This document shows positions 8,977 to 49,289 of a DNA stretch of 64,000 nt, one piece after another; position 1 is the first letter of the stretch; each line of letters starts with the position of its first letter. This DNA is from an uncultured bacterium. Lineage in GTDB: Bacteria; CSSED10-310; CALFER01. A model generated the notes under the pieces. It was not told the DNA's origin. It ran no database searches and saw only the letters and a program-made list of their open reading frames with translations. The stretch lies in NCBI GenBank assembly GCA_937951895.1, contig CALFER010000076.1, positions 16,398-80,397 of the forward strand, read 5' to 3'. The position numbers and the translations under genes were made by a program.

Positions 8977-8994
8977 CTCGTTCCCTCCATTTGC

Positions 8995-10363: not shown

Positions 10364-10375
10364 CGTTGAACCTCG

Positions 10376-11680
10376 TCAGGGTGCTGTGCGGACCAGCCGG
10401 AATCCGATCCAGAACCTTGTTGAGTTGGGTTCGAACAGCTGACGATTGGCGCATCGGCAAACTGCGGCAGAACTTCCCCATTCACCACCCCGGATGATCC
10501 GGTAATCGCCGGTCGATGGCCCCTGATAATCCGTAACGGCCCCCTCTGGATACTCGGCTTCATACCAATCCCAGACCCATTCGAACACATTTCCGAGTGT
10601 ATCCTTCAAGCCCCTCGGATTGGGTAGTTTCGATCCGATAACAGCAGCAGAGCCGCCCGCATTCGCGTGGTAGACACAATACTGCTCCAGAACCGTATGC
10701 GTGCCCTCTGTCGCCGAGTTGCAATTGCCGGCATGGTAGTTCGGCTCGTCGCAGAAAAAGGGTCCCTGTGTTCCGGCGCGGGTCATGAATTCCCATTCGC
10801 CTTCGGTCGGAAGCCGGTACCCGTTCGCAGTGAAATCACAGAAAAACGGACCGATCGAATAATTGGTCCGATCGACCGGAACCGTAAAGGAGGCATTTGT
10901 ATAGTAGCAACGGTTGTAGCCGTTCTGGAGGGACAGGAGATTGGCGAACAACACGGCATCATACCACGTGACCCGATTGATGGGATGATTCATGGTTGGA
11001 CTGTAATCGGTGTCGCTCGAATCCGACGTCAGTGTCGATTGAACTGCCTTGAGATCCGCCCACATCTGGCGGGATAATTCGGTTTCCATGACCAGGAGGT
11101 TCCGGATGAGTATATGTGTGAACGGATCTTCATCATCGCTCCGGCATGCTTCTTCATCGGGTGAGCCCTGCACGAAGGAACCGACTGTGATGGGGATCAT
11201 GTTTCCGACTGAAACGGGATGAGAAGGGTTCGGTGTGGGGGTGAATGGAGAACCGGACGTCCAGCTGAACGTGACATCAGCGAGGTTGCTGATGAGATTG
11301 CCCTGGGACACGACAGCGGCATAGAACAAGGCACCTGAAAACTCGCCTGCTCCGGATGGCCAGGCAAACTCCGGAATGATCGTCCTGACATCCTGGTAAT
11401 CAGCAGGAAAACTCGTCATCTCGAAATCGATATCCGGAGGATAGGTGACCCAACCGGGGAAAAACCAGAAATCACCGGTTCCGACAGTCAGAGCGACGAA
11501 GAGTTGTGCATCATTAATGGAAGAGCCGGTGTTGACGATGTCGAGAACCAATGAAAAGCCGACTCCGGGACTGAACGTATCTGTCGGCATCTGCAGGTCG
11601 AGTTCGATGTCTTGCGCCTGAATCGCAGTGCACACGGTCAACAAAATGAAACTCTGGAAAATACGATTTCTCGTGAACAT
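10376..11680 (-). CDS. Secreted FGE-sulfatase (formylglycine-generating enzyme family) domain protein with the novel ~115-aa domain at its N-terminus
   Basis: The start is refined to the ATG at 11680 (GGAGG SD), giving the signal peptide 'MFTRNRIFQSFILLTVCTAIQAQ'. The novel domain ('LQMPTDTFSPG...LFVALTVGTGDFWFFPGW...IIPEFAWP...FSW') follows. A short P/T linker and an FGE-type domain ('GYRLPTEGEWEFMTRAG', 'RGGEWGSSAAVCRC', 'GFRLVRTAP') complete the protein. Confidence 0.75.
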   Translation of the reverse strand: MFTRNRIFQSFILLTVCTAIQAQDIELDLQMPTDTFSPGVGFSLVLDIVNTGSSINDAQLFVALTVGTGDFWFFPGWVTYPPDIDFEMTSFPADYQDVRTIIPEFAWPSGAGEFSGALFYAAVVSQGNLISNLADVTFSWTSGSPFTPTPNPSHPVSVGNMIPITVGSFVQGSPDEEACRSDDEDPFTHILIRNLLVMETELSRQMWADLKAVQSTLTSDSSDTDYSPTMNHPINRVTWYDAVLFANLLSLQNGYNRCYYTNASFTVPVDRTNYSIGPFFCDFTANGYRLPTEGEWEFMTRAGTQGPFFCDEPNYHAGNCNSATEGTHTVLEQYCVYHANAGGSAAVIGSKLPNPRGLKDTLGNVFEWVWDWYEAEYPEGAVTDYQGPSTGDYRIIRGGEWGSSAAVCRCANRQLFEPNSTRFWIGFRLVRTAP

Positions 11681-14184: not shown

Positions 14185-16119
14185 ATGAAGGTAACAGGGA
14201 AATCAGTCGGATCGATCGGATTCGGGTTGGTTCTGTGGATGATGTGGACCCCGAAACTCCATGCCATGCATAGTCCGCAATGGATTTGGGAAGACCCCAG
14301 GAGCTCACTTGGGATGAATCTCGATATGAGCGCATCGGGCAATGAGATGGTGGTGGGCACATCATCCGGGGATGACAACCGCATGGTGGTGGCGTACTTC
14401 AACCAGGAATCGTCCTTTCCCGTGGCTCGAATCGAGTATCCCGGCGCCGGGAGCATCGGCAGCGTATCGATTTCCGATGATGGATTCCGATACGCGTGTG
14501 CGTTCGGTCATGAGATTCATGTTTATCAGGCGCCCGACACGGAAATCTTCACGTTCCGGGATAACGACCTGCTCCTGTCTCAAGTCGCTCTGAACACGGA
14601 CGGCAGCAAACTGGTCGTGACCAGTCTCCACAATCAATCTCTGCCCGGACGTGTCCTGTTCTTCGACGTGGATACCCAGGCATTGCTGTGGCAGGACGAT
14701 CCGTCGGAGGAAGTATCCGTCAACGGCGCGTACGCTCCGTCACGAATCTCAGCGGACGGCACCCGTGTGCTGGTGCTGTTTGCGGGCCGTCAGATGGGGA
14801 ACCCGGCGTATGTCGTGCTGTATCAGACCGACTCGGTCGACCCCGGAGCGCCCGTATGGATCAGCCAACCACTGGAAGCCTGGGGGCGTCAGATCGAGAT
14901 GTCTGCGGACGGGAACTTCTTCATCACGATCCTGGCAAACATCATCTCGTGTTTCGATATGTCGCCGCCGATAGCCGGCGTTAAAACACCGCTCTGGGAG
15001 GCAGAGGGGAGTGGATATGATACATTGAATCACTTCGGAGGCATTTCCGACGATGGTTCGGTCGTGGCCCATTTCGGTGAAACCTCGACCGGATCCTGGG
15101 TTGAAATCTACGACGGCGCGAATGGATCGATCCATTGGATGTCCTACGTGTTTCTGGAAGAGATAAGAGGGTGTGTCTCGGGAGACGGAACCCGTGTCGC
15201 GTATTCATCCTGGGAGAATCCCGAACCGGTGAATCACTTTGTGTATGATATCGGGGAGGGATCGGTGATCTGGTCAGAACCCGGTTACGGTCTGGTTGCG
15301 ATGAACACGACAGGTGATCGGCTTTTTCTTACGGATGGCAGTGACGACGAATCACCGCCGACGCGATTGATGAGGCTGGAAGATAACCTTCCGCCGCAAT
15401 GCAGTATCGAGTCGCCCCTGCCGGGCGAGACAGTATCAGGGATGGTGCATCTCACCGGTTTAGTCGCCGATGTCGATGATCTGATCGAACGTGTCGAGGT
15501 ATTGTTGCCATCCGGTGTGACGCTCGCGAACGCACCTTCAGGAGCTTCGGGAGAATGGTCGGCGGATATCGACGTGTCTGCTTATGCGGGAAGCCTGTTG
15601 CTGATCAAAGCCCGTGCGATCGATACCCGGTACAAGCATGGTCAATGGGCGGAGGTTGGTGTCGCTGTCGTGCCCGATGGGACTCCGACTCCGGGACCCA
15701 GCGCAACATCGGCCGCCGAGTTTACTCCAACCCCCACCCCACCGTCTCCAGCCGGGCTCACACTGTCGCTGGCTCTCTCACAGAACCTGTTCATGGCCGG
15801 GGATGCCTTCTGGCTGGACGCGATGATCGACAATCCGCAGGAACCCCTCACACAAGTTCCATTGGTCGTGCTGCTCGAGATCCACGGCGCATTTTTCTGC
15901 TGGCCGTCCTGGTCGGCGCTGGAAGTTTCCGGCGAGGGATTTGATTACTCCTTGCGCAATATCCCACGCGGGACGCATCGATTCGAGATCATCCAGCCGT
16001 TCTTCTGGCCGGAAACCGGTGGTTGGGGAATCGGACTCCTTTTCTATGGGGTTTTACTCGATCCTCAATTCTCAAACCTGTTGTGCGATATCGATGTCGA
16101 GATGTGGTCGTATCGCTGA
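14185..16119 (+). CDS. Secreted beta-propeller-like repeat protein with Ig-like region, P/T linker and novel C-terminal domain
   Basis: An N-terminal hydrophobic signal is followed by repeated strand-like segments. The linker is 'PDGTPTPGPSATSAAEFTPTPTPPSP'. The C-terminal 115 aa ('PLVVLLEIHGAFFCWPSW...FFWP') match the shared domain. Confidence 0.6.
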   Translation: MKVTGKSVGSIGFGLVLWMMWTPKLHAMHSPQWIWEDPRSSLGMNLDMSASGNEMVVGTSSGDDNRMVVAYFNQESSFPVARIEYPGAGSIGSVSISDDGFRYACAFGHEIHVYQAPDTEIFTFRDNDLLLSQVALNTDGSKLVVTSLHNQSLPGRVLFFDVDTQALLWQDDPSEEVSVNGAYAPSRISADGTRVLVLFAGRQMGNPAYVVLYQTDSVDPGAPVWISQPLEAWGRQIEMSADGNFFITILANIISCFDMSPPIAGVKTPLWEAEGSGYDTLNHFGGISDDGSVVAHFGETSTGSWVEIYDGANGSIHWMSYVFLEEIRGCVSGDGTRVAYSSWENPEPVNHFVYDIGEGSVIWSEPGYGLVAMNTTGDRLFLTDGSDDESPPTRLMRLEDNLPPQCSIESPLPGETVSGMVHLTGLVADVDDLIERVEVLLPSGVTLANAPSGASGEWSADIDVSAYAGSLLLIKARAIDTRYKHGQWAEVGVAVVPDGTPTPGPSATSAAEFTPTPTPPSPAGLTLSLALSQNLFMAGDAFWLDAMIDNPQEPLTQVPLVVLLEIHGAFFCWPSWSALEVSGEGFDYSLRNIPRGTHRFEIIQPFFWPETGGWGIGLLFYGVLLDPQFSNLLCDIDVEMWSYR

Positions 16120-16344
16120 ACACCGGCATCGCTTCAAATTCTATCGTATCGGACGCTCCAGGATTTGATCGAACCGATTGATCTCGATCGATTGGTCTGA
16201 TAGATTCACAATAAACTGATCGCGAGACCCTGTTGGAAGTCGCGTCACGATCATCTCCGATTCCATTTGGAGATGGATTGGATGAGACGGGAACTGCGAT
16301 TCGGGTTGTCGCGGTATTCAGACACGATGCGAGGAGGGCGAGTC

Positions 16345-19191
16345 ATGAAGGTAGCGAGTACCATGTGTTTGATCCCGATCATGATCTTCGGAATGATCCC
16401 GATTTGTGATGCATCTTCCTACAAGGTTCGTGTTCCGCATACGATTGAATTCATGTGTGAAGAGGGAACCGGAGGTTATACCGGATATTGGGGGCTCAAG
16501 GTCGTTTGGGGACCCTATCCGGATGCTGCCGGGTATCAGGTGATTTCGCATCATGGCGCGTATGGGGGCGGTTTAGTTGCAGGCAATGTACATGAATGGA
16601 GCATCGGAGGGGGGAGCCCGGTCGCACCCGGCGGATGTCCTGCGATCGAAGCGTCGGTCAATCCCGCCTGGTATCAGAATATCTATGAAGTATGGGGAAC
16701 CTTTCCCGAAGGCGGGAATCTCGAATTGCATAAAACAGACAACATATACGGTGCTGCCCATCCCGGCGACGAAGTGCGATACTTCCTGATCTACAAGAAT
16801 ACCGGGAAGTATCCGTTGCTCGATTGTATCGTCGAAGAAACATGGCCGGACTACATGGAGTTTGTTGCCGGAGGCAGTTCAACCGGTCCGAATACCGTGA
16901 TCTGGAACTTTGGTACGCTGTATCCCGGACAATGGGTCCAGGTCGAACTCGTGTTGCGAATCAGTGAAGATCTCCCGCAATCGATCACGGAAATCTATAA
17001 TGTCGCGGTCGCACATCCCGCTCCTTCACCCTCGCCGGCACCCGGCGGCACACCCGGGTCGGGTATTTCGACCGTCAGCGGCTACGCCGTTTCGCACTGC
17101 GATGCGTTGCGATGCAACTTCGTGACGGGCGACACGGATTGGATCGATCGACCGGACTTCTCCAGTTATCAGGATCTCGTTCCCTATGACGTCGTGCGGG
17201 GGAATGATGATGTGTTGCTCAATTCCGGCTTTACCTCGTTCAACCATACTGTCGCGACAGGAACGCTTCTCCTGTATCAGGGCGGTTTCCACCTCACGAA
17301 TTGTCCGGATCTTCCGGATCAGGTGTTATCCGAGATCATTCTCGACACGCCCGCGTCCATCGAGCATGCTGTATCCGGTATCATGAGCCCAGACGATCAT
17401 GTCAGAGTGCTCGGTCAGTTCCTCACCGTGGAAATTCATGAAGGGCGATATACGCTCAGTGACGATGCGGCCAGCGAATTCGTGGAGGTTGAATCCGGAG
17501 GGATCACGGTGGTCGACCCGCTCGGCGATCGGCATGACCTGACGTCGGGTGACACGTTTACATGGCCCCCGTTGATCGGTCCGAAGAACGGCAGCAACGG
17601 CCCGACGCTGACCGGAACCTCACCGGATCCATTCGGTTCGGTCGAAGTCGGTCATATCGCGATTCAATACGAGTTCGATGAAGCGGTGTCTTCAATCGGC
17701 AATGCGAGCAGTTTTGCGATCGGAGAGACGTCCGGTGTGTGGCATGGGTCGGGCACCCTGACCGATCTCGCATCCTATGTTTCCATCTCCTGGAATGCCG
17801 AAAACACCATTATGACTCTTACAGTAAACTCGACATATCCATGGTTCGGTATGGATCTGGCGGCAGGAATGACCCTCATCACCGGATTGCATCTCGTGGA
17901 TGTCACCGGTCCTTCCGGCACGACACCCGAGATCTATCAGACGATTCCGATCTTTGTCACATCAACGACTTCGTCGCTCGGATGGGTGAGTTGCGAGTAT
18001 GAGCACTTCAGTTTTATCACTCAGGGAAATGACCTTCTATCTCCGGGCGCATCCTGGCATGTCCAGCAACTTCCGTCGCTTCCGGGAGCTGTCCCTGCCG
18101 GTATGTATCAGGCCAGTCCAGCTTTCGAGTTTCAATTCGACGGAACCGTCCTGGATCACTACTGGCTTCAACTCCGTCCCGGTACGCCATGGGGACTTCC
18201 GCAGGGTAACGCGGGCGGTGGACTCTATGTGTGGAGTGGTGCGGAATGGGTCATGCAGCGCGAAGGATTCGGGCTCGAGTGGACCTGGTCGAACCCGCTG
18301 ACGGATCCCCATCAGATCATCGTGCTGCTTTCGGTGTGCGAGCGTCCTGAAGCACCCGGAATTGTTTCGATCGTTCCGAACGCGGGGAGTGGTCCCGTAT
18401 CACCGGATAGCGCAATCGTGATTCAGGTGGCGGCCCGTTCCGGAATCCGTGAACATACAGCGGATATCCGCATCAACGGACAGCGGACGCTTTCATTCGA
18501 TCCGGCAACCGGACAGCTCCAGGGATGGATCGTTGAAGAAAACGATGGGGTGACGACGTTCACCTATACACCGGAAACAGAGTGGCAGGACGGGCAGATC
18601 GTCTTTGTCAGTTACTATCTGGCAGCTCGCTTCGGTTTGATCTCCACGGAAGGGTCGTTTGCATTCCAGGTGGTCTGTTCGGATCCGACCGATGGCGATG
18701 GGGACGGGATGCCGGACAAGTGGGAGACAGCGAATGGAACGAATCCGTCCGGCTTCGACCGGGATGCGGACCCCGACGGTGATTCGCATGCGAACATTAC
18801 AGAATATACACATTGCAGCAGCCCATCGTCTTCGATCTCGTTGCCCGCATTTCCACGGATCGATATCGTCGCGAATCAGGAAGCGTACTATGCCTCCGAT
18901 GAGATGCTCGTCAAGGCACGTGTCACCAGCGGACCTGTCTCCCTGCCGGTCGATCTGTATGTCGCACTCGAGCTGTATGGCGGGTTTTACTTCTGGCCTG
19001 CATTTTCGACCGACGTCGTTCCGATATCCTTCACTATGCCATCGGGAATCGATGTTTCATTCGATCTGTTCTCATATACCTGGGACACGATTCCTGCCGC
19101 GATGACTCTCACGTGGTATGGTGTGTTTGTCGAACCTCAATCCATGTTTCTTTACAGCCTGGATTCACTCTCGATGATTCTGGCGCTCTGA
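16345..19191 (+). CDS. Large secreted protein with DUF11-like Ig-like domain, thrombospondin-type-3-like Ca-binding Asp-rich repeats and novel C-terminal domain
   Basis: The start is refined to the ATG at 16345 (GGAGGAGGG SD), giving the signal 'MKVASTMCLIPIMIFGMIPICDA'. The protein carries 'DGDGDGMPDKWETANGTNPSGFDRDADPDGDSH'. The C-terminal domain is 'PVDLYVALELYGGFYFWPAFS...FSYTWD'. Confidence 0.6.
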   Translation: MKVASTMCLIPIMIFGMIPICDASSYKVRVPHTIEFMCEEGTGGYTGYWGLKVVWGPYPDAAGYQVISHHGAYGGGLVAGNVHEWSIGGGSPVAPGGCPAIEASVNPAWYQNIYEVWGTFPEGGNLELHKTDNIYGAAHPGDEVRYFLIYKNTGKYPLLDCIVEETWPDYMEFVAGGSSTGPNTVIWNFGTLYPGQWVQVELVLRISEDLPQSITEIYNVAVAHPAPSPSPAPGGTPGSGISTVSGYAVSHCDALRCNFVTGDTDWIDRPDFSSYQDLVPYDVVRGNDDVLLNSGFTSFNHTVATGTLLLYQGGFHLTNCPDLPDQVLSEIILDTPASIEHAVSGIMSPDDHVRVLGQFLTVEIHEGRYTLSDDAASEFVEVESGGITVVDPLGDRHDLTSGDTFTWPPLIGPKNGSNGPTLTGTSPDPFGSVEVGHIAIQYEFDEAVSSIGNASSFAIGETSGVWHGSGTLTDLASYVSISWNAENTIMTLTVNSTYPWFGMDLAAGMTLITGLHLVDVTGPSGTTPEIYQTIPIFVTSTTSSLGWVSCEYEHFSFITQGNDLLSPGASWHVQQLPSLPGAVPAGMYQASPAFEFQFDGTVLDHYWLQLRPGTPWGLPQGNAGGGLYVWSGAEWVMQREGFGLEWTWSNPLTDPHQIIVLLSVCERPEAPGIVSIVPNAGSGPVSPDSAIVIQVAARSGIREHTADIRINGQRTLSFDPATGQLQGWIVEENDGVTTFTYTPETEWQDGQIVFVSYYLAARFGLISTEGSFAFQVVCSDPTDGDGDGMPDKWETANGTNPSGFDRDADPDGDSHANITEYTHCSSPSSSISLPAFPRIDIVANQEAYYASDEMLVKARVTSGPVSLPVDLYVALELYGGFYFWPAFSTDVVPISFTMPSGIDVSFDLFSYTWDTIPAAMTLTWYGVFVEPQSMFLYSLDSLSMILAL

Positions 19192-20271: not shown

Positions 20272-21786
20272 TTAATGCGACTCGTCCCAACTGAAATCCC
20301 AGGAATCCATCGCGCCGACCAGAAATGAGAACTCCGCATCGGTCATGCCTGCATACCAGATGAGTCCTGACACGCTACCGGCGTTGTCGGGAAAACTGAA
20401 CGGAGGAACGACCACCTGTTCCGTGATTCCGGGCATCAGGGATTCGAAGAGATAGTGATCGAATGCCGTGAATCCGGGCGCGAAGTAGTACTGGCCGAAT
20501 GCATCCAGAACGACAAAGAGGGGGACATGCTCCATGGCCTGTGGTCCGGGATTGCACACATGGACGATGCAGGAACAGGGATCACCGGGGTGAAAAAAGT
20601 GCGACGGCATCCACAGTTCGACTCCGAGACTCCCGCAGGACGCCGTCGGAGATGCTGAGGGCGTCGCGGTGGGTGTGGGCGTTGCCGTTGGAATGGCAAC
20701 TACAAGATAATGATACCCCATATCGACCATTCCAAGATCCGTAATCTGATCCGTCCGGGTGGTATATGAATCGAGACAGGATGGCGGTTCAACACCTGGA
20801 AAGCAAGTGTCCTGTGCCGGACTGTCACCCGAATCGATGCATGGGCTGTCCTGTGCCTGTCCGGCCGAGGTTGACGACAGGTAATATTCGCCAAGCGGGC
20901 CTGGCGTGAAGAGCGGTATTGCATCGATGTTCCCATCCCCTTCATAACCGCCTCCGATGTTCGAGTAACGAATGGTCGGATTCCCCCCGATGTTGGTTCC
21001 ATAATTATGAACGATCGAGTTGACAATCAAAGCTGATCCCTGAATGCCTCCGGTTCCAGAAAGGGACGCTTCTCCACTATTGTTCACGATCGAGCAGTTG
21101 CTGATATGCGCCGTATCACACCGTATTCCTCCAACTGCTCTCCCCGCCGGATTGTCCCATGCCGCCGCGTCATTATCTGAAATGATGCAATTGAAGAACG
21201 ATGGATCGCCTCCGATCGCCCAGACACCGGCCACGACTTCAGCGTCGAACAGATACCAATCTTCGCATTCGATCATGTTTTGCGTGATCCAACAGCTCAG
21301 AAAGATGGCCTGCGACGACCCGAGATAGACACCCGCCCCGGCATGCTCACCATCTCCGCACCAGGCCGAATTGTAGATGATTTTGCAGTTCGAGATGACT
21401 GGAGAGGCACTTTCGATCTGCATGCCGGTTCCGTAATCGCCATACTGAAGAAACTGCGTGATGGTAAAGCCGTTCAGACGCGATGCATTCCCTTCTTCAT
21501 GATCAAAAATGAATCCGATGTGGTTGACCGCATAGTTGCCGTTGACGATGGTGTCGTCAGGACCGGTTTCCGAGGTGACGGTGATGGCTTTTCCGAGAAA
21601 ACGAATATCTCTGTTGCCGTCTCCGGAATAGACACCCGGAGCGACCAGAACGGTATCATAATCCCCGGCGGCATCGATACCGGCCTGGATGGTCGGTTGA
21701 TCTCCCGGCACCCGGATCACCAGAGCGTGTCCGGCAACAGGAAGAAGCAGAATCAGTGACAGGATGAATAGTGTGTGTTTCATCAC
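20272..21786 (-). CDS. Secreted right-handed beta-helix (adhesin / choice-of-anchor-Q-like) protein with novel C-terminal domain
   Basis: The signal peptide is 'MMKHTLFILSLILLLPVAGHA'. 'IRVPGDQPTIQAGIDAA..DTVLVAPGVY' is the typical start of beta-helix adhesin-like proteins. Parallel beta-helix repeats are present. A post-helix module 'YYLSSTSAGQAQDSPCIDSGD...TTRTDQITDLGMVDMGYHY' follows. A PT linker and then the C-terminal domain complete the protein. Confidence 0.7.
   Translation of the reverse strand: MMKHTLFILSLILLLPVAGHALVIRVPGDQPTIQAGIDAAGDYDTVLVAPGVYSGDGNRDIRFLGKAITVTSETGPDDTIVNGNYAVNHIGFIFDHEEGNASRLNGFTITQFLQYGDYGTGMQIESASPVISNCKIIYNSAWCGDGEHAGAGVYLGSSQAIFLSCWITQNMIECEDWYLFDAEVVAGVWAIGGDPSFFNCIISDNDAAAWDNPAGRAVGGIRCDTAHISNCSIVNNSGEASLSGTGGIQGSALIVNSIVHNYGTNIGGNPTIRYSNIGGGYEGDGNIDAIPLFTPGPLGEYYLSSTSAGQAQDSPCIDSGDSPAQDTCFPGVEPPSCLDSYTTRTDQITDLGMVDMGYHYLVVAIPTATPTPTATPSASPTASCGSLGVELWMPSHFFHPGDPCSCIVHVCNPGPQAMEHVPLFVVLDAFGQYYFAPGFTAFDHYLFESLMPGITEQVVVPPFSFPDNAGSVSGLIWYAGMTDAEFSFLVGAMDSWDFSWDESH
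20280..20650. repeat. ~370-nt direct repeat (~90% nucleotide identity) with 21865..22235, covering the C-terminal domain coding regions of two tandem paralogs
   Basis: Direct comparison of the two stretches shows long identical runs, e.g. 'ggaatccatcgcgccgacca', 'gaactccgcatcggtcatgcctgcataccaga' and 'gatagtgatcgaatgccgtgaatccgggcgcgaagtagtactggccgaatgc'. Confidence 0.85.
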
Positions 21787-21854: not shown

Positions 21855-24647
21855 CTACGGATGATCTCCCCAGCCGAATTCCCAGGAATCCATCGCGCCG
21901 ACCAGGAATGAGAACTCCGCATCGGTCATGCCTGCATACCAGAAGAGTCCTTCCACGGTGCCGACATTTTCGGGGAAGCTGAACGGAGGAACGACCACCT
22001 GTTCCGTGATTCCGGGCATCAGGGACTCGAAGAGATAGTGATCGAATGCCGTGAATCCGGGCGCGAAGTAGTACTGGCCGAATGCCTCCAGAACGACGAA
22101 GAGAGGGACATGCTCCATGGCCTGCGGGCCGGGGTTGCACACCCGGACGATACAGGAACAGCTATCACCGGGGTGGAAAAAGTGTGAAGGCATCCACAGT
22201 TCCACTCCGAGAATTCCGCAGGGCGCCGTCGGAGAAGCAGTCGGCGTTATGGTGGGAGAGGGGACAGCCGACTGCGTCGACTCGGGTGTCGATGTGGCAG
22301 GCGCGGTCGGCGAAGGCGTGGCCGAGATCGTCGCCGTCGGTGACGGGCCTGCCGTGCGTGTTGGCGTCGGAGTCTCGGATACGTTCAATGGGTAGTGGTA
22401 TCCCATGTCAACCATGCCGTTATCGCAGACTCGGTCGGTTCGGGTCGTCATGGAGTCCATGCAGATTTCCTCATTGGAAATGTCGTGACACACATCGACT
22501 GCCGATGCACTGCCTGTTTCGAAGCAGGGGCTGTTCGATTCCTGCCCCGAGGCGATCTGGCTGAGGCAGAACGCGTCGATCGGCCCATTGGTGAACAGGG
22601 GATCCTGATCGATGTTGCCGGATCCCGCCCATCCGCCCTGAACATCGGAGGAGATCACGGTCACGAACTGCGTGTCTCCGCCAATCGGACTTGGTTGCCC
22701 GCCCCAGAGAATACTGTTCTCGACAGTGATCGCCGGCGAATCATGACAGAACAATGCGCTTCCTGTGGTGTCGGCCGTGTTGAAAGCCAGTGTGCAGGAG
22801 CTGATGCCGGTCGTCGTACTGCTGCTGAAGTAACACGCGCCTCCCGAGTCGGATGCATGATTCGAATCGATCAGGCAACCCCAGATGTCGGCCGAAACAT
22901 CCCAGCCGCCGAAGATCGCTCCGCCATTGGAGCCGGCTATGTTTCCAGACAGCACGGAACGGGTGATAACCGCGAGGACACATTTCGCGCCGAGATCGAT
23001 TGCGCCTCCATTCTGGCCGGCCGCGTTGTCGATGAACCGGCACTGGTCGAACGTCTGCAGACTGAACATCCGGTTGCTGTACCCTCCACCGGATCCCGTT
23101 TCAGCGCCATTTCCGATGAAACTGCATCTCAAAAACGAAGGGTTCGCTTCACCGTCGTTCTGAATCCCGCCACCGCTTTCATATGCGGAATTGCTGGAGA
23201 GAATGCAATCGGTAAAAGCGGGTGAGGAGTTCTCGATGTACACCCCGCCGCCCGATTCCATGGCCGTGTTGTTTTCGATCCGGCATCTGAGAATCGAGGT
23301 GTCGCTTCTGGTGAGATAGATCCCGCCTCCGGCTCGCGCTCTTCCGCCACGGATTGTCAGATCCTGAATCACCGCGGAGTGATCGATATGCCCGTAGAAG
23401 ATCCGCTGGATGTCTCCGGCATCGATGATGGTCGATTCGATGCCGCTCCCGGCAAGGGTCACGTGATTGACGATCGGAAGTGGAAATGATTCACCGGTCG
23501 TCATGGCGGAGAAGACACCGGGGCCGATATGAATCACGACGGGAAGATCCGGGGATCCCAGGATTCGTTCGAGTGCGTGCCGGAGGGTGAGGAAGGACGA
23601 TTCCCATGAGAGCCCGCTGTTGAGGTCGTTTCCGGTGCAGGACACATAGACATCCTGGGTGATCGCGTCGGTCTGACTCGTGCAACCGGTCCGATCGAAC
23701 GCGTCCGGTGGCGAAACATAATAGTCGGAATCGTGCAGACCGCTGAATCCATTGTATTGAGCATTGAACGGCTCCTGAGGATCGAAAACCATCGAGGCCA
23801 GATCGGCACCGCCTCCCGCCTGGTTATCGCTGAAGGAATTGCCATCCGATGGACTGCCTCCGATGATCGGAGTCGCTCCGTAGTTGCAGAACAATGCGCC
23901 ACCCAGATGATCGGCGACATTGAGTTGAAACTCGCAATTCCGTATCTGTCCCGAAGCCCAGGAATCGAAAAAGAGGGCACCCCCGTACAGGGTCGCCGTG
24001 TTGGAAATGAAAAATGAAGAAAAAATCGTCGGATTGGAATCGTACGTCATGGAAGCGCCTGCGCCGAGTTCGGCGGTGTTGTTCCGGATGATGCAGCACG
24101 TGACAGAAGCGCCGGATTGCGAGAAATTGAAACCACCGCCGTCCCGGGAGGCGAAATTCTGTTCAATGTAACAATCCACAATCTGGGGTGCGGCATTGCG
24201 CAGACACGCCACTCCCGCTCCATACGTGGCGGTGTTGAGGATAATTCTGCAATTGACGATGCCGGGTGACGAGGCGTAATCGCAGAGAATCCCTCCGCCA
24301 CGTCCATCGATCCAGCCGTTTCGGATCGTGAACCCTTCCAGAGTGGCTTGAGAGGTTTCTCCACTCGTGAAGATAAACCCGCGGTGAGGGTCATCGATCG
24401 ATCCCTGACAGTCGATCGTGCAGGATGTGTAACCCCATTCCGAAACAACCCGGATATTCTTGCCCTGGAAGCTGATGTCACGGTTTCCCGGGCCGGTGTA
24501 ACAGCCTGACATCACCTGAACCGTGTCTCCCGGTTGCGCAACGTCGATACCGGCCTGTATGGTCGGTTGATCGGCGGGAACATGGATTGTAACGGCTTGT
24601 ACAAGCGGACCTATCAACAGGGCGGCAAGGATGGCCAGACGATTCAT
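21855..24647 (-). CDS. Large secreted right-handed beta-helix protein (two beta-helix blocks) with novel C-terminal domain
   Basis: The start is refined to the ATG at 24647 (perfect AAGGAGG SD), giving the signal 'MNRLAILAALLIGPLVQA'. 'IHVPADQPTIQAGIDVAQPGDTVQV' follows. Many 'GGGIY/GGAIF' beta-helix repeats are present. The C-terminal 120 aa are ~90% identical to those of the neighbouring paralog. Confidence 0.7.
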   Translation of the reverse strand: MNRLAILAALLIGPLVQAVTIHVPADQPTIQAGIDVAQPGDTVQVMSGCYTGPGNRDISFQGKNIRVVSEWGYTSCTIDCQGSIDDPHRGFIFTSGETSQATLEGFTIRNGWIDGRGGGILCDYASSPGIVNCRIILNTATYGAGVACLRNAAPQIVDCYIEQNFASRDGGGFNFSQSGASVTCCIIRNNTAELGAGASMTYDSNPTIFSSFFISNTATLYGGALFFDSWASGQIRNCEFQLNVADHLGGALFCNYGATPIIGGSPSDGNSFSDNQAGGGADLASMVFDPQEPFNAQYNGFSGLHDSDYYVSPPDAFDRTGCTSQTDAITQDVYVSCTGNDLNSGLSWESSFLTLRHALERILGSPDLPVVIHIGPGVFSAMTTGESFPLPIVNHVTLAGSGIESTIIDAGDIQRIFYGHIDHSAVIQDLTIRGGRARAGGGIYLTRSDTSILRCRIENNTAMESGGGVYIENSSPAFTDCILSSNSAYESGGGIQNDGEANPSFLRCSFIGNGAETGSGGGYSNRMFSLQTFDQCRFIDNAAGQNGGAIDLGAKCVLAVITRSVLSGNIAGSNGGAIFGGWDVSADIWGCLIDSNHASDSGGACYFSSSTTTGISSCTLAFNTADTTGSALFCHDSPAITVENSILWGGQPSPIGGDTQFVTVISSDVQGGWAGSGNIDQDPLFTNGPIDAFCLSQIASGQESNSPCFETGSASAVDVCHDISNEEICMDSMTTRTDRVCDNGMVDMGYHYPLNVSETPTPTRTAGPSPTATISATPSPTAPATSTPESTQSAVPSPTITPTASPTAPCGILGVELWMPSHFFHPGDSCSCIVRVCNPGPQAMEHVPLFVVLEAFGQYYFAPGFTAFDHYLFESLMPGITEQVVVPPFSFPENVGTVEGLFWYAGMTDAEFSFLVGAMDSWEFGWGDHP

Positions 24648-24817
24648 GGTAACCTCCTTATGTTCTGTGAAAACAAATTTGCAAAAAATATGCCATGTAT
24701 TCAATTCACCAACCGGGAAAAATAATCGGAAACGTGTTATAAAATGGATATGGCGTGAGCCGGATCGTGATTTCATTATCGGAGCAGTCAGTTTCCGGAA
24801 TTTTGCAAGGAGGAAAC

Positions 24818-27469
24818 ATGCGTGATGCCACAGTGCGGCTCATCACCCTCTGCCTGATTATAGGCATCGGGATCCCCAAAAGTTACTCTGCCGAACTCCA
24901 TGTCCCTGCTCAGTTCGCGACCATCCAGGCTGCCGTCGATGCGGCAATCCCGGGTGACACCGTCTTGGTTGCAGATGGCACCTGGAGCGGTGTCGGAAAC
25001 GTGACCATTCATCCGGATGGCAAAGCCATCACGATCCGGTCAGCATCAGGGGATCCCGAGGCTTGTACCATCGACGGTTCGGGAATCGATCAGGGATTTG
25101 TCTGCGCGTCGGCTGAAACGCGTGACACGGTCATCATGGGATTCACCTTGTATCGATGCGGACGCGATCCGAACCTTGGACCCGTCGACGGTGCCGGTAT
25201 TTCGTGCGTGAACGCGTCGCCGACGATTCGGCATTGCCGGTTTGTGGACGGGTATGCATCGTGGAGTTATCCGGGACCGGGAAGTGGCATGTATGGTTCC
25301 GGAGGAGCCATCGCCTGCTCCGACGGCGCGGCTCCCGAGATTGCCGACTGCGTATTTATCACCTGCATAGCCGGCGAATCCGGCGGCGCGATTCATGCCC
25401 GGGACGCGGCCCCCGTGATCCTGGATTGCGCCTTCACGGACAACCGGTCGTATGGCCGCGGAGGCGCAATCAATCTGAAGGACTCGCCTGCGGTAATAAA
25501 CGGTTGCGTCTTCACGGACAACCGCGCTGTGAACGGAGACGGAGGTGCACTCTGTCTGGATGCATCGTCAGCCGAGATCACATTGAATGAATTCACGCTG
25601 AACCGATCCTTGAGAGGCGGAGCAGTCGCATGCCTCGGCGCAACCCCGATCATCGGCGGGGCAAGTGATCTTGGGAATCGTTTCGACCGTAACTATAGTG
25701 GCTCCGGAGCCGACCTGTTCGCCCAGGTGCCTGCTTCCACCATCGATGCCCGATTCAATACGTTCACCGGGCTCATGATGTCGGATTACTGTGTTTCACC
25801 TCAGGAAACCTTCGATCTGTCCGGCTCTCAGACCACCGCGACTCCGATACAATCCGACGTCTTCGTGGCTCAGGATGGCAGTGACGAAAACAGCGGCCTG
25901 TCAATCGATGCACCGTTCCGCACGATCCAGTTCGCGCTCAGTCGGGTGCTGCCGACCGAAGCCTCTCCGATCACCATCCATATCGCCTCCGGCGAATACT
26001 CGGCTTTCACGACGGGTGAGGCGTTCCCTCTGCCTCTGTTGAGCCACCTCTCGTTGTCCGGTGCGGATCAGTGCCGCACCCATCTGAACCCCTCATATCA
26101 ATCGGTGTGCCTGTTCGGTCATCATGATACGGATGTCCGCATCGACGGGATCGATATCCGGGGAGGCAGCGGTGAATCCGGGGGCGGGCTGCATGCCAGT
26201 GACTGTCAGGTGGAACTCACGAATCTGACGGTCCGTGAGTCGGTTGCAGAAAAGGGCGCCGCCATGTATCTGTCCGGAACGGATGCCTCGATGAGATCCG
26301 TTCTCATCATGGACAACTACAGCCGTTACATGGGAAGTTCCGCCGGCGTGGTCGCCATCGGAGGGCATCTCCGGATACTCGACAGCGTCATCACCCGCAA
26401 TGCTTCCGACGGTCCCGGCGGCGGTGTGTATGTTCAGGGAGCCGCTCTGATCGCCTCCTGCAGGATCACCGAAAACGAAGCGCGTCGTGCCAGTGGCGGC
26501 GGTGTTTTCTGTGCGGACGGCCCTCTGGAAATGGTGAATTGCGAACTGATCCGGAACCGGGCGATTCTCGGAGGCGGGGTCTTCGTGACCGGCCAATACG
26601 ACCTGCTCAATTGCCTGATCGCGGAAAACACCGCGGTACTGTCCGGTGCCAGTTTCCAGTCATTCGATGCCTCGGGTCTCATCCGGCACTCGACCATCGC
26701 GGCCAATACAACCAGCGGATCGGTCGTTTCGAGCGTTTTCTTCGAACAAAGCGATTCTACCGTGAGTGACTCGATTGTCTGGAACGAATCGGGAGCCGAG
26801 ATCCAGGTCGAAGACGCACAACTCTCGGTGACGAATTGTGATGTGAGGGGAGGTTTCGAGGGAGCCGGGAATATCGACAGCGATCCGCAATTCACAGCGA
26901 TGCCGATGTCGAACTATTATCTGAATACCGGCGAGTCAGGTGATCCGATCAGCCCCTGTATTGATGCCGGTGGCAAAATGGCCGCTGAGTGCACCTATTC
27001 CGGATTGTGGGGGGAGATCGACCTGGAGAGGTGGACCGCCGGCTCCGATTGGTTGCGGGATTCCGGAGTTGTCGATATCGGCGTTCACTGGGATCATGCT
27101 CTTTTCAGCGGAGTCAGACTGGATCTGACGACCCGCATGCTCCATCCGGGAGATCGGCTGCGGCTGGATGCGGTTGTGCTCAACCACAGCGGCGTTGATT
27201 GGAGCGACAGTCGCCTTTTCGTCATTCTGGATGTCTACGGCAGTTACTGGTTCGCACCGTCATGGGCGTACATGGACGATGGTTTCGACTGGTATTCGAT
27301 GGATCTGGCCCCCGGTGCAAGGAACATCGTCAGCGTGATTCCCGATACCGTCTGGCCCGAAGGTGTCGGCAGCGCGGACAATCTGGCGTTCTGGGGTGGC
27401 CTCACGGATGGCGCTTTCCTCAATCTCCGCGGGGATTTCGACAGGGTCATCTTCGGGTATCGGGACTGA
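24818..27469 (+). CDS. Large secreted right-handed beta-helix protein with novel C-terminal domain
   Basis: The start is refined to the ATG at 24818 (AGGAGG SD), giving the signal 'MRDATVRLITLCLIIGIGIPKSYSA'. 'LHVPAQFATIQAAVDAAIPGDTVLVADGTW' follows. Beta-helix repeats are present. The C-terminal domain is 'LFVILDVYGSYWFAPSW...VWPEG'. Confidence 0.7.
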   Translation: MRDATVRLITLCLIIGIGIPKSYSAELHVPAQFATIQAAVDAAIPGDTVLVADGTWSGVGNVTIHPDGKAITIRSASGDPEACTIDGSGIDQGFVCASAETRDTVIMGFTLYRCGRDPNLGPVDGAGISCVNASPTIRHCRFVDGYASWSYPGPGSGMYGSGGAIACSDGAAPEIADCVFITCIAGESGGAIHARDAAPVILDCAFTDNRSYGRGGAINLKDSPAVINGCVFTDNRAVNGDGGALCLDASSAEITLNEFTLNRSLRGGAVACLGATPIIGGASDLGNRFDRNYSGSGADLFAQVPASTIDARFNTFTGLMMSDYCVSPQETFDLSGSQTTATPIQSDVFVAQDGSDENSGLSIDAPFRTIQFALSRVLPTEASPITIHIASGEYSAFTTGEAFPLPLLSHLSLSGADQCRTHLNPSYQSVCLFGHHDTDVRIDGIDIRGGSGESGGGLHASDCQVELTNLTVRESVAEKGAAMYLSGTDASMRSVLIMDNYSRYMGSSAGVVAIGGHLRILDSVITRNASDGPGGGVYVQGAALIASCRITENEARRASGGGVFCADGPLEMVNCELIRNRAILGGGVFVTGQYDLLNCLIAENTAVLSGASFQSFDASGLIRHSTIAANTTSGSVVSSVFFEQSDSTVSDSIVWNESGAEIQVEDAQLSVTNCDVRGGFEGAGNIDSDPQFTAMPMSNYYLNTGESGDPISPCIDAGGKMAAECTYSGLWGEIDLERWTAGSDWLRDSGVVDIGVHWDHALFSGVRLDLTTRMLHPGDRLRLDAVVLNHSGVDWSDSRLFVILDVYGSYWFAPSWAYMDDGFDWYSMDLAPGARNIVSVIPDTVWPEGVGSADNLAFWGGLTDGAFLNLRGDFDRVIFGYRD

Positions 27470-33577: not shown

Positions 33578-34930
33578 TCAGGGGAGGGTCCGGACGAGTC
33601 TGAATCCGAGAATATTACAGCGATAATCCGGCGTGTCCGAGTATCGCACAGAGGATCGGCAACTGTACGCCCGATCGGACCACCCGCCGCCTCTCCAGAT
33701 CCGCTTTGTTCCGGAGTCCGGTCCCCGATAGTCGATCCGATGCGATGCGGGATACGCGCCATACCAATCCCAACAGGATTCCCACAGGTTGCCGTGCATG
33801 TCATACAGGCCCCAGGGGTTGGGAAGCCGGGAAGCCACTGTCTCGGTTATCCCCGGTTGATTGGCGCAAAAAATACAGTGTTGTTCGAGAGTGGGAAGAA
33901 TGCCCGGCTGGCAGAGAGTATAGAGGCAATCCTGAGTGAAATAGAGCGGTTCGTCGCATGAGAATGGTCCGGAGGTGCCCGCTCGCGCCGCATATTCCCA
34001 TTCGCCTTCGGTCGGAAGACGATATCCGGCTGCGCTGAAATCACAGAAGATCGGGTCGGATTCGAAGTTTGAGGCATCCACCGGGATCGAAAAGGAAGCA
34101 TCCTTGAAGTAACAGGGGTTCAGGCCGTTTTGATCGGATAACAGGTTCGCAAACAAAATGGCCTCATACCAGGAGTTGTTCTGAACCGGGTGCTGCATCG
34201 TCGGACTGAGAAACAGAACACTGGGATCGTCCGGAAGCGAGGGCTGAAGACTCTTCAAATCCGCCCACATCTGCCGTGTGATCTCGGTTTCCATCACTCC
34301 GAGCGCGTGACTCAGCGCATGCGTAAACTGAGACTCATCCGGACCGCGACACGGTTCGTCCGGAGGTGAACCCTGAAGCCAACTGCCTTGCGGAACACAC
34401 CTCAGTTCCCCGATGATCCCGTCGGTCGCGATCAGTCCCCCTCCCGTGCAGTCCGGAATCGGAGTCGGTGTCGTGACCTGATCCAGCGTGATGTCCTCCA
34501 GTTCATACTCTCCATCCCCGATCTCGATCCCGATCCTCATGCCGGTATGATATCCCGGTGATGCCGCCAGGAGGTCGTACGTTCCCGGAGTGACATCGTT
34601 GAACCAGTAATATCCGTTCAGATCGGTCGAGCCGGTATACATGAGCGCCGCTCGGGCCAGCATGCAGACGGCAAGGAGACACAGAGAGCCGCCCGAAACA
34701 CGACTCTTCATCCGGAGCAGACAGCATCCGAATCCGATAAGAAGCAGCGCGGCGGTATAAGTCCCCATGGCGGGGAGCGCCTGGTGGGGGGCGAGTTCCA
34801 CCGATATTCCGGAGTGATCCGTCTGACCCTCCAGAAAGGCATGCCCCGTGACCATGGAAGCATGTGCGATCGGCTGGTAAAGAAGAAACATGATCACAAT
34901 CGACGATGCCGGAATTCTGATGGGACTCAT
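33578..34930 (-). CDS. Membrane-anchored FGE-sulfatase domain protein with carboxypeptidase-regulatory-like beta-sandwich domain
   Basis: The N-terminal region has 2-3 hydrophobic helices. 'GSTDLNGYYWFNDVTPGTYDLLAASPGY' resembles a CarbopepD_reg-like domain. The FGE-type domain is 'GYRLPTEGEWEYAARAG...RGGGWSDRAYSCRS...GFRLVRTLP'. The start is uncertain. Confidence 0.7.
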   Translation of the reverse strand: MSPIRIPASSIVIMFLLYQPIAHASMVTGHAFLEGQTDHSGISVELAPHQALPAMGTYTAALLLIGFGCCLLRMKSRVSGGSLCLLAVCMLARAALMYTGSTDLNGYYWFNDVTPGTYDLLAASPGYHTGMRIGIEIGDGEYELEDITLDQVTTPTPIPDCTGGGLIATDGIIGELRCVPQGSWLQGSPPDEPCRGPDESQFTHALSHALGVMETEITRQMWADLKSLQPSLPDDPSVLFLSPTMQHPVQNNSWYEAILFANLLSDQNGLNPCYFKDASFSIPVDASNFESDPIFCDFSAAGYRLPTEGEWEYAARAGTSGPFSCDEPLYFTQDCLYTLCQPGILPTLEQHCIFCANQPGITETVASRLPNPWGLYDMHGNLWESCWDWYGAYPASHRIDYRGPDSGTKRIWRGGGWSDRAYSCRSSVRYSDTPDYRCNILGFRLVRTLP

Positions 34931-49288: not shown

Positions 49289-49289
49289 T

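What the first reader, a model, noticed from the sequence alone, without database searches (positions are those of the whole stretch)
21855..24647. Beta-helix passengers carry a conserved post-helix module resembling the 'choice-of-anchor' end-cap of adhesin-like proteins, directly ahead of the novel domain
Five paralogs share a block after the parallel beta-helix repeats, of the form DP.F..GP....YYLS...SGQ..SPC.D.G........TTRTD...D.G.VDMGYHY. It is found at roughly 20680-20950, 22400-22640, 26870-27110, 41380-41580 and 57440-57680. The N-terminal 'I.VP.DQPTIQAGIDAA..GDTV.VA.GVY' start resembles beta-helix proteins that in other lineages end in interchangeable sorting signals (PEP-CTERM, LPXTG, T9SS CTD). 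Here the position where such a signal would sit is always occupied by the novel domain, which strengthens its interpretation as this lineage's sorting/anchor signal.
Basis: inference. Interest (0 to 1): 0.55.

Follow-up and report, generated by a model that had tools for sequence, protein, structure and literature searches.

The report
Divergent end cap of beta-helix domains
The conserved block is the ordinary piece that finishes off a beta-helix domain, a divergent cousin of the catalogued 'choice-of-anchor Q' module, and its presence says little about whether the domain after it is a sorting signal.

Summary
Five secreted beta-helix proteins in the window carry the ~77-aa block at the stated coordinates, 3-56 aa ahead of a ~115-aa C-terminal beta-sandwich.

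The block is a widespread C-terminal end module of right-handed beta-helix domains, with 16,241 representative proteins at E<=1e-3. It is homologous to NCBIfam NF041518 'choice-of-anchor Q': hhalign gives 99.4% against caps that pass that model. The window copies themselves do not score on the model. They belong to a divergent branch (SGQ..SPC, Cys loop, TTRTD, VDMGYHY) found in several phyla.

In homologs, 65% of caps are internal, lying between tandem helix units. After the last cap come dockerins, T9SS CTDs, hydrophobic-helix anchors, other small domains, or nothing. A CSSED10-310 relative has the same cap followed by a dockerin. So the cap does not mark a sorting-signal slot.

The beta-sandwich has no Pfam or NCBIfam hit and a CARDB-like fold. 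It is terminal in 10 of 11 window copies. It sits at the N-terminus of one FGE-sulfatase protein in the window and of 60 of 120 of that protein's homologs, where dockerins can replace it. It looks like a position-independent docking tag rather than a processed C-terminal signal.

This is an ordinary, mostly known module of modest interest.

The parts
21855..24647 (-). Gene 1 (the finding). It comprises a signal peptide (MNRLAILAALLIGPLVQA), beta-helix unit 1, beta-helix unit 2, the end cap, a PT-rich linker and a C-terminal beta-sandwich.
   Evidence: Translation. Pfam NosD, Chlam_PMP and DUF1565. NCBIfam LIC10774, NosD and POMP.
24492..24593 (-). N-terminal start of helix unit 1 in gene 1 ('VTIHVPADQPTIQAGIDVAQPGDTVQVMSGCYTG')
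   Evidence: Translation. The equivalent stretch in paralogs is matched by DUF1565 or by the NosD N-terminus.
22389..22619 (-). End cap of gene 1 (GNIDQDPLF...SPCFETG...Cys loop...TTRTDRVCDNGMVDMGYHY)
   Evidence: iE 1.4e-40. (hhalign 99.4% to NF041518-positive caps).
21867..22220 (-). C-terminal beta-sandwich ('novel') domain of gene 1
   Evidence: AF2 pLDDT 96.8. CARDB/RhoGDI-like fold.
20272..21786 (-). Gene 2: a one-unit beta-helix protein with end cap, 22-aa PT linker and beta-sandwich
   Evidence: Translation. No Pfam or NCBIfam hit for the whole protein. AF2 model pLDDT 68.8.
20704..20934 (-). End cap of gene 2
   Evidence: iE 2e-39
20284..20637 (-). C-terminal beta-sandwich of gene 2
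24755..27469 (+). Gene 3: a two-unit beta-helix protein (probable start MRDATV at 24818), divergent from gene 1
   Evidence: Translation. Pfam Beta_helix 1.7e-21 and DUF1565.
26867..27097 (+). End cap of gene 3 (the most divergent copy: ...WTAGSDWLRDSGVVDIGVHW)
   Evidence: iE 2.9e-36
27107..27466 (+). C-terminal beta-sandwich of gene 3
40234..41967 (+). Gene 4: a one-unit beta-helix protein
   Evidence: Translation. Pfam Beta_helix 1.3e-18 and NosD.
41371..41571 (+). End cap of gene 4 (short version without the Cys loop)
   Evidence: iE 2.5e-25
41620..41964 (+). C-terminal beta-sandwich of gene 4
56123..58051 (+). Gene 5: a PMP-repeat beta-helix protein
   Evidence: Translation. Chlam_PMP 5e-19. 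POMP_repeat 4e-18.
57449..57682 (+). End cap of gene 5
   Evidence: iE 2.5e-37
57695..58048 (+). C-terminal beta-sandwich of gene 5
2202..2552 (+). Same beta-sandwich at the C-terminus of a BACON/PKD/Ig protein that has no beta-helix and no cap
15766..16113 (+). Same beta-sandwich at the C-terminus of the 14185-16119 protein (no cap)
18874..19155 (+). Divergent copy of the beta-sandwich at the C-terminus of the 16267-19191 protein (DUF11/TSP3)
   Evidence: iE 2.5e-7
52972..53316 (+). Same beta-sandwich at the C-terminus of a DJ-1/PfpI-domain protein
60343..60693 (-). Same beta-sandwich at the C-terminus of a 1121-aa protein (PT-rich linker, beta-propeller-like repeats)
10376..11680 (-). FGE-sulfatase-domain protein (434 aa) in which the same beta-sandwich is N-terminal (nt 11261-11599), right after the signal peptide
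   Evidence: The public gene call is identical. 60 of 120 homologs share the architecture.

Best explanation
The block is the C-terminal end module ('cap') of a right-handed parallel beta-helix domain. After the last rung ('N.I.W.N ... v.YS.v.GG..G.GNI') the chain runs through DP.F, a short hairpin (YYLS...SGQ), the nearly invariant SPC.D.G turn, a variable loop (a Cys-x8-9-Cys loop in genes 1 and 2), and TTRTD...D.G.VDMGYHY. By inference it covers the open end of the solenoid, so that the helix terminates cleanly and the next module can be attached by a linker.

It is a divergent branch of the module NCBI catalogues as choice-of-anchor Q (NF041518), too far from that model to score on it. It is a structural junction, not a sorting element. 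It recurs between tandem helix units, can be the last thing in a protein, and is followed by whatever terminal module a lineage uses.

In this organism (relatives are candidate division CSSED10-310 MAGs) the module used most often is a ~115-aa CARDB-like beta-sandwich. That domain is shared by at least 11 secreted proteins in the window with unrelated passengers. The sandwich most likely acts as a folded, position-independent docking or address tag that tethers exported proteins to a common partner on the cell envelope. In this it would be functionally comparable to a dockerin, with which it is interchangeable at both positions.

Shown: homology of the cap, its distribution, what follows it, and the fold and positions of the sandwich. 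Inferred: the capping role and the docking role.
For: Cap:
- It sits at the end of regions matched by Beta_helix, NosD and Chlam_PMP.
- The profile finds 16,241 representatives.
- There are 338 complete caps in 118 top proteins, and 220 of them are followed by another helix unit plus cap.
- NF041518 hits 42 of 147 homologs, on the cap itself at profile positions 15-58.
- hhalign of the window caps against NF041518-positive caps gives 99.4%, E=5e-21.
- S-P-C and flanking G/D columns are >=90% conserved across 147 homologs.
- Beta-solenoid ends are prone to fraying and are stabilised by capping motifs (PMC13288671, abstract).

What follows the cap:
- T9SS CTD in 4 homologs, Dockerin_1 in 5 and CHU_C in 2 by HMM.
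- A regex tabulation of the representatives gives 40 dockerin-like, 11 hydrophobic helix plus basic tail, 10 window-type sandwich and 8 nothing.
- In the same phylum, L002 has a cap followed by Dockerin_1 at 28.6 bits.

Sandwich:
- AF2 pLDDT 96.8, 8 strands.
- Foldseek matches CARDB 3idu/2kl6 with TM 0.58-0.70, plus RhoGDI and Spo0M.
- No Pfam or NCBIfam hit for any copy.
- It is at the extreme C-terminus in 10 window ORFs, 26 ORFs in related loci and 10 representatives.
- It is N-terminal in the FGE-sulfatase protein and in 60 of 120 of its homologs, using a profile built only from C-terminal copies, up to 70 bits.
- Dockerin_1 occupies that same N-terminal slot in FGE homologs P0280, P0318, P0320 and P0330.
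Against: - No confident 3D view of the cap. Foldseek matched only its C-terminal sandwich, so stacking on the last rung is inferred from position and conservation.
- No solved structure matches the cap by sequence. The best hit is Rhombotarget A 9cdu, E 0.05-0.56.
- The window caps fail the curated NF041518 cut-off.
- For the sandwich, no partner is identified. The docking role rests only on architecture and on the parallel with dockerin.
- Its strong bias to the very C-terminus is also what a secretion CTD would show.
Confidence: 0.7

Rival explanations
1. The cap marks the slot where a lineage-specific C-terminal sorting signal sits. The beta-sandwich is that signal: a T9SS-CTD-like secretion or attachment domain recognised, and perhaps cleaved, by dedicated machinery.
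For: The domain ends within 0-11 aa of the stop codon in 10 of 11 window ORFs and in all 26 ORFs found in related loci. Passengers are unrelated: beta-helix, PKD/BACON, DJ-1, Kelch and beta-propeller. All have N-terminal signal peptides, and many have PT linkers. Homologous caps elsewhere precede T9SS CTDs. T9SS CTDs are also Ig-like sandwiches (own knowledge).
Against: The domain is N-terminal in the FGE-sulfatase family (60 of 120 homologs), which a C-terminal signal cannot be. There is no similarity to T9SS CTDs: no TIGR04183 or PF18962 hit, and hhalign gives 0.14%. No T9SS, sortase or exosortase gene is found in the 64-kb window. The cap itself is mostly internal, or terminal with nothing after it.
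Confidence: 0.2
2. The beta-sandwich is a ligand-binding module (carbohydrate, mineral or other substrate), comparable to a CBM, that brings different enzymes and adhesins to a common substrate. It would not be an anchor to the cell.
For: It has an E-set/CARDB-like fold, and the top 50 Foldseek hits include the accessory sandwich of GH3 glucosidases and the Wzt glycan-binding domain. It is position-independent. The window is rich in sulfatase, FGE and beta-helix (polysaccharide-lyase-like) proteins.
Against: No CBM family is hit. It is interchangeable with dockerin, a protein-protein docking module. Passengers include non-enzymatic repeats.
Confidence: 0.2
3. The cap has a function of its own beyond closing the helix, for example Ca2+ or ligand binding, or autoprocessing at the conserved D-P, that matters for export.
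For: The DP.F, SPC.D.G and D.G.VDMG motifs are very highly conserved across phyla. The acidic residues are reminiscent of metal sites (inference only).
Against: Nothing tested here points to it. The same motifs are conserved in internal caps between helix units, where processing would fragment the protein.
Confidence: 0.05

Closest known systems
NCBIfam NF041518, choice-of-anchor Q domain (58-position domain model)
   Same: Same place (end of a PMP/Beta_helix-type right-handed beta-helix) and same core motifs (GNI..DP.F..L...SPCID.G, D.GxxE/HY). Profile-profile probability is 99.4%. Homologs carry alternative C-terminal anchors.
   Different: The window copies and their nearest relatives do not score on the model. 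They have an SGQ.. insertion before SPC, a 10-30 aa loop (a Cys pair in genes 1 and 2), TTRTD in place of D.DG.PR, and VDMGYHY in place of DMGAYEY.
Right-handed parallel beta-helix families: Pfam Beta_helix PF13229, NosD PF05048, DUF1565 PF07602, Chlam_PMP PF02415
   Same: The passenger regions of four of the five proteins score above gathering thresholds. The N-terminal 'I.VP...TIQ.AIDAA..GDTV.V..G.Y' start is the usual beginning of DUF1565/NosD-type helices.
   Different: These models stop before the cap. Gene 2 (20272-21786) scores on none of them.
T9SS type A C-terminal domain (TIGR04183 / PF18962)
   Same: It is a beta-sandwich at the extreme C-terminus of many secreted proteins with unrelated passengers. 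It follows the same kind of cap in Cloacimonadota-type homologs.
   Different: No sequence or profile similarity to the window's sandwich. The window's domain is larger (about 115 aa, 8 strands) and also occurs N-terminally.
Dockerin type I (PF00404)
   Same: It occupies the same two slots as the window's sandwich: after the cap in a CSSED10-310 relative, and at the N-terminus of FGE-sulfatase homologs. This suggests an equivalent 'tag' role.
   Different: It has an unrelated fold (a Ca2+-binding helix pair). No cohesin-like partner for the sandwich is known.
CARDB domain (PDB 3idu, 2kl6) and other E-set sandwiches (RhoGDI, Spo0M/arrestin-like)
   Same: Best structural matches for the sandwich: TM 0.58-0.70, rmsd 3.0-4.6 A.
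   Different: No Pfam CARDB hit, and 15-20% identity. The fold class is very common and says little about function.

Membership tests
NCBIfam NF041518 choice-of-anchor Q | Scores at or above the curated cut-off (25 bits) on the 58-position model | tested here: not met
   No choice-of-anchor hit for the five whole proteins at E<=0.1. None is listed for the isolated caps with max_evalue 10 (HMMER's filters drop most matches above about 0.1). Close relatives P0001, P0003, P0005, P0011 and P0261 also give none at E<=1.
NCBIfam NF041518 choice-of-anchor Q | Homologous to sequences that do pass the model | tested here: met
   The window profile A1 retrieves P0075, P0097, P0100, P0110 and P0115 at E 1e-7 to 1e-5 in 5.8 billion sequences. 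hhalign of A1 against A7 gives 99.4%, E=5e-21 over 64 columns. That local alignment covers the first half (last rung to SPC.D.G). The second half is similar by eye only.
NCBIfam NF041518 choice-of-anchor Q | Lies at the C-terminal end of a beta-helix / PMP-repeat passenger | tested here: met
   the cap begins right after the last Beta_helix, NosD or Chlam_PMP match.
NCBIfam NF041518 choice-of-anchor Q | Name-giving property: relatives end in different anchors or sorting signals in different lineages (meaning of 'choice-of-anchor' as explained for family A in 10.1101/2023.03.06.531300) | tested here: met
   T9SS CTD in 4, Dockerin_1 in 5 and CHU_C in 2 by HMM. Hydrophobic helix plus basic tail in 11 of 118. 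But also nothing after the cap (8 of 118 and 18 of 52), and 220 of 338 caps are internal.
Right-handed parallel beta-helix (PF13229 / PF05048 / PF07602 / PF02415) | Passenger scores above the Pfam gathering threshold | tested here: met
   Met for genes 1, 3, 4 and 5. Gene 2 has no hit, but it aligns with its paralogs, and its AF2 model shows the short-strand triplets of a solenoid.
T9SS C-terminal sorting domain (for the domain after the cap) | Match to TIGR04183 / PF18962 or profile similarity to such CTDs | tested here: not met
   No hit. hhalign of A2 against four PF18962-positive CTDs gives probability 0.14%.
T9SS C-terminal sorting domain (for the domain after the cap) | Found only at the extreme C-terminus of cargo | tested here: not met
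   C-terminal in 10 of 11 window copies and in 26 of 26 non-FGE ORFs in the related loci. N-terminal in window 10376-11680 and in 60 of 120 FGE homologs.
T9SS C-terminal sorting domain (for the domain after the cap) | Genome encodes T9SS machinery (PorV, PorU, Sov, GldK-N) | not testable with these tools
   Only the 64-kb window and short loci could be read. None of these genes is in the window. The whole genomes were not available.
Helix-type sorting signals (PEP-CTERM, LPXTG, GlyGly-CTERM and similar) | C-terminal motif plus hydrophobic helix plus basic tail | tested here: not met
   All five proteins end in the last beta-strand of the sandwich (...FGW/FGY plus 0-5 aa).
CARDB / E-set beta-sandwich (for the domain after the cap) | Sequence match to Pfam CARDB, and fold match | tested here: inconclusive
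   No Pfam hit for any of the 11 copies. The fold does match: TM 0.58-0.70 to 3idu/2kl6.

The most novel reading that the evidence does not exclude
The ~115-aa beta-sandwich that follows the cap is the shared address tag of an undescribed envelope-targeting or surface-assembly system in CSSED10-310 and related uncultured bacteria. It would be a folded tag, usable at either end of a protein and functionally parallel to dockerin-cohesin or to the T9SS CTD. It would mark dozens of exported proteins per genome for a common receptor. The divergent cap would then simply be the standard junction between beta-helix cargo and tag.
Probability: 0.3. Interest if true: 0.6.

Novelty: new variant of a known kind. 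Interest (0 to 1): 0.3.

Why it matters
For the finding itself, little changes. It shows that a very common beta-helix end module has a large branch that the curated choice-of-anchor Q model misses. There are hundreds to thousands of representative proteins in Planctomycetota, Acidimicrobiia, CSSED10-310 and others. Many 'hypothetical' giant beta-helix proteins could therefore be delimited into units by a broader model.

It also corrects an attractive but weak line of reasoning, namely that the position after a cap implies a sorting signal.

The side result is more useful. The uncatalogued beta-sandwich is a two-position tag, C-terminal on diverse cargo and N-terminal on FGE-like enzymes, that swaps with dockerin. 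This gives a concrete, testable idea of how a rare, uncultured phylum organises its surface proteins.

Tried and rejected
1. Direct hmmscan of whole proteins and isolated caps against NCBIfam and Pfam gave no choice-of-anchor hit. The link appeared only through homologs.

2. The search for homologous proteins with short queries returned only proteins of 195 aa or less, mostly fragments. With the sandwich profile it found only P0121, a truncated copy of the window's own FGE protein.

Single-sequence and A5 scans found only 4 and 6 loci, so the lineage is rare.

4. T9SS-CTD homology of the sandwich was rejected: hhalign gave 0.14%.

5. I tested whether the T2SS/T4P-like operon next to the FGE gene is the dedicated export route. 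The synteny is not conserved for three FGE homologs, so it is not supported.

6. I tested whether the tails of P0048 and P0200 are distant cousins of the sandwich. hhalign gave 22% and 5%, which is inconclusive.

7. The full-length structure of gene 2, meant to show the cap on the helix, had pLDDT 68.8. Foldseek matched only the sandwich.

8. PDB sequence searches with cap and sandwich profiles found nothing significant.

9. The first BLAST clustering of tails was inflated by PT-rich linkers. It was replaced by motif- and HMM-based classes, which are still approximate, with 45 of 118 tails unclassified.
Full report
**What is there.** The finding's coordinates (21855-24647, minus strand) are one gene for a secreted protein. 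It comprises a signal peptide, two right-handed beta-helix units, the conserved block, a 56-aa Pro/Thr-rich linker and a ~115-aa C-terminal domain.

Four more genes have the same tail: 20272-21786(-), 24755-27469(+), 40234-41967(+) and 56123-58051(+). A profile of the five blocks places them at 22389-22619, 20704-20934, 26867-27097, 41371-41571 and 57449-57682. No other ORF in the window scores (next best E=0.11). Over 111 aa the copies are 34-46% identical to the first, with 18 invariant columns.

The gap to the following domain is 56, 22, 3, 16 and 4 aa.

**What the passengers are.** Four of the five proteins score above Pfam thresholds on Beta_helix, NosD, Chlam_PMP and DUF1565. NCBIfam gives only sub-threshold NosD and LIC10774 matches, except POMP_repeat, which is above its cut-off in genes 1 and 5. 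It gives no choice-of-anchor hit. The isolated caps and the isolated C-terminal domains hit nothing meaningful in either library.

**How common the block is.** The five-sequence profile, searched against 1.84 billion representative proteins, finds 16,241 at E<=1e-3, 4,598 at <=1e-10 and 432 at <=1e-30. In the top 150, 118 carry complete window-type caps, 338 caps in all. Of these, 220 (65%) are followed by another helix unit and another cap, in proteins of up to about 5,600 aa among those 118. An Anaerohalosphaeraceae locus (L004) is one open reading frame of more than 2,720 aa with internal caps. The block is therefore the end piece of a helix unit, wherever that unit sits in a protein.

**Relation to choice-of-anchor.** I scanned 147 homologs one by one, and NF041518 'choice_anch_Q' matched 42 of them (best E 2e-16). 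Per-protein tables show that this is a 58-position domain model whose positions 15-58 lie on the cap itself ('..L...SPCIDAG....D.DG.PR....DMGAYEY'), with 27.6-40.9 bits against a cut-off of 25.

The five window-type relatives tested (P0001, P0003, P0005, P0011, P0261) gave no hit. A profile-profile comparison of the window caps with nine canonical-type caps (five confirmed NF041518-positive) gives probability 99.4%, E=5e-21 over 64 columns.

The window copies belong to a divergent branch that fails the curated model. That branch has an SGQ.. insertion, a longer loop with a Cys pair in genes 1 and 2, TTRTD, and VDMGYHY. It is not lineage-specific: complete window-type caps occur in proteins labelled Phycisphaerae (P0041), Acidimicrobiia (P0039), Anaerohalosphaeraceae (L004) and CSSED10-310 (L002, L003).

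**What follows the cap elsewhere.**
- By HMM, among the 147 homologs: Por_Secre_tail/TIGR04183 in 4, Dockerin_1 in 5, CHU_C in 2.
- By an approximate motif classification of what follows the last cap in the 118 representatives: dockerin-like 40, hydrophobic helix plus basic tail behind a PT linker 11, the window's sandwich 10, nothing (0-5 aa) 8, a ~68-aa 'W..W..FYRV' domain 3, unclassified 46.
- Among the 52 fragments with a complete cap, 18 end 0-5 aa after it, typically '...GYHY-x-P-stop'.

Random truncation cannot explain this (P=1.8e-5 for 8 of 118). Two cases were checked on DNA. P0103 is a gene inside a 46.6-kb contig, with a stop 2 aa after the cap and the next gene (TrkA) about 300 nt downstream; the arrangement is conserved in a second sample. 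P0041 is similar.

**The lineage, and whether the slot is 'always' the novel domain.** The closest genomic relatives are an uncultured MAG contig syntenic with the window (L001, 83% identity) and two candidate division CSSED10-310 MAGs from Zodletone Spring (L002, L003). This is a rare phylum, predicted to be Gram-negative (PMC8248873).

On L002, one gene has cap plus sandwich, while its convergent neighbour has the same window-type cap followed by a Dockerin_1 module (28.6 bits, above the gathering score). On L011, 245 aa separate cap and sandwich. 'Always' therefore holds only within this window.

**The domain after the cap.** A profile made from four C-terminal copies finds it in 11 window ORFs. 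Besides the five helix proteins, it ends a BACON/PKD protein, a DJ-1/PfpI protein, a DUF11/TSP3 protein and two repeat proteins.

AF2 predicts an 8-strand sandwich with pLDDT 96.8. Foldseek finds E-set folds. The best by TM are the CARDB structures 3idu and 2kl6 (TM 0.58-0.70), followed by RhoGDI and Spo0M. No Pfam, NCBIfam or PDB sequence relative exists for any copy, and it shows no profile similarity to T9SS CTDs (0.14%).

In related loci it is at the extreme C-terminus in all 26 non-FGE ORFs that carry it.

The eleventh window copy is N-terminal. In the FGE-sulfatase protein 10376-11680(-) it starts right after the signal peptide, and the public gene call is identical. This is a conserved architecture: 60 of the 120 best homologs of that protein carry the domain at residues ~23-141, scored with the profile built only from C-terminal copies (up to 70 bits). 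In four other FGE homologs the same N-terminal slot holds a Dockerin_1 module very like the one that follows the cap on L002. Contigs L019 and L020 carry N-terminal-type and C-terminal-type proteins side by side.

**Mechanism.**
- The cap (confidence about 0.85 that it is a structural end module homologous to choice-of-anchor Q). It closes the C-terminal end of the solenoid, an end that is otherwise prone to fraying (PMC13288671), and provides a defined junction for the next unit or tag. The homology and the distribution are shown.
- The sandwich (confidence about 0.45). It is a folded tag that works at either end of a protein and is exchangeable with dockerin, so it most likely docks exported proteins onto a common partner on the envelope.
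- A processed, T9SS-like C-terminal signal is less likely (about 0.2) because of the N-terminal copies and the lack of any similarity or nearby machinery. A substrate-binding module remains possible (about 0.2).

**Surroundings.** The window contains no sortase, exosortase or T9SS gene. The FGE gene heads a run of three small proteins (at least two prepilin-like), a GspE-like ATPase and a GspF-like protein. That linkage is not conserved for three FGE homologs, so I do not build on it.

**Verdict.** The block is a new, uncurated variant of a known, very common beta-helix end module. It does not by itself argue that the next domain is a sorting signal. The next domain is an uncatalogued CARDB-like tag that deserves its own study.

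Noticed in passing
window 5736-11680 (-): The FGE-sulfatase protein with the N-terminal beta-sandwich heads a same-strand run. It is followed by three small proteins, at least two of them prepilin-like (9977-10363 'GFSIVE', 9417-9980 'GFTLLE' with a weak N_methyl hit, and about 8995-9420). Then come a GspE-like ATPase with an MshEN domain (6805-8976) and a T2SS-F protein (5736-6854). The run is embedded among genes for sandwich-tagged proteins. The linkage is not conserved for three FGE homologs.
   Followed up: partly
L002 3703-6348 (-); P0130, P0167, P0181; P0280, P0318, P0320, P0330: A distinctive Cys-framed dockerin variant ('C.HHGDVNLDG.IT..DAQ.AF...LG...PT.EE.CAADC.GDG.VT..DAQ.IF...LG.G.C.DP') occurs after beta-helix caps and at the N-terminus of FGE-sulfatase proteins. 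These are the same two slots that the window's beta-sandwich uses.
   Followed up: partly
window 42044-43513 (+): An S41 (C-terminal processing type) peptidase gene lies 77 nt downstream of beta-helix gene 4 (40234-41967). This could be coincidental, or it could be relevant to C-terminal processing.
   Followed up: no
window 33578-40160: A second FGE-sulfatase protein has a CarboxypepD_reg sandwich instead of the window's domain (33578-35062, -). Nearby are a 909-aa ORF with no Pfam hit (35227-37956, +) and a sulfatase (37953-40160, +).
   Followed up: no
window about 23650-23800 (-) and about 25790-25900 (+): junction between helix units 1 and 2 of genes 1 and 3: The first helix unit ends in '...FDPQEPF...DSDYYVSPPDAFD' (gene 1) or '...DYCVSPQETFD' (gene 3). 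This looks like a degenerate half-cap, and the cap profile does not detect it.
   Followed up: no
P0006, P0010, P0017, P0023, P0026, P0031, P0071, P0192, P0202, P0204: A ~68-aa C-terminal domain ('...I.WN...G..Y.V.WS.D...W..V.VGE...WTD.......FYRV.E') follows window-type caps in other metagenomic proteins. The one example scanned (P0006) has no Pfam hit.
   Followed up: partly
P0052, P0065, P0073, P0085, P0086, P0112: Canonical (DMGA.E-type) caps are followed by a very short tail ending '..MPW.PLLLLDD' or similar. This may be an uncatalogued short C-terminal signal.
   Followed up: no
P0048, P0200, P0201 tails: Another ~120-aa tail after window-type caps ('...GD.....NPG...VDVYFAFVMPDG...') aligns end to end with the window's sandwich, but only at hhalign probability 22% and 5% (tested for P0048 and P0200; P0201 is BLAST-linked to P0200). 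It may be a distant cousin.
   Followed up: partly
PDB 9cdu/9cdv (Rhombotarget A): This is the only PDB sequence touched by the cap profiles, and the hits are not significant (E 0.05-0.56). It has '...YDELCDLGAIEY' near its C-end.
   Followed up: no
window 44953-50588 (+): A run of Fe-S cluster-related genes: a dinitrogenase FeMo-cofactor-binding-like protein, two CbiA/ParA-type NTPases with 4Fe-4S domains, a radical SAM protein, and a NifU-N plus ParA/Mrp fusion. It is unrelated to the finding.
   Followed up: no
window 58173-60353 (+): A 726-aa protein combines many ankyrin repeats with a metallo-beta-lactamase-fold domain. It lies between two sandwich-tagged genes.
   Followed up: no
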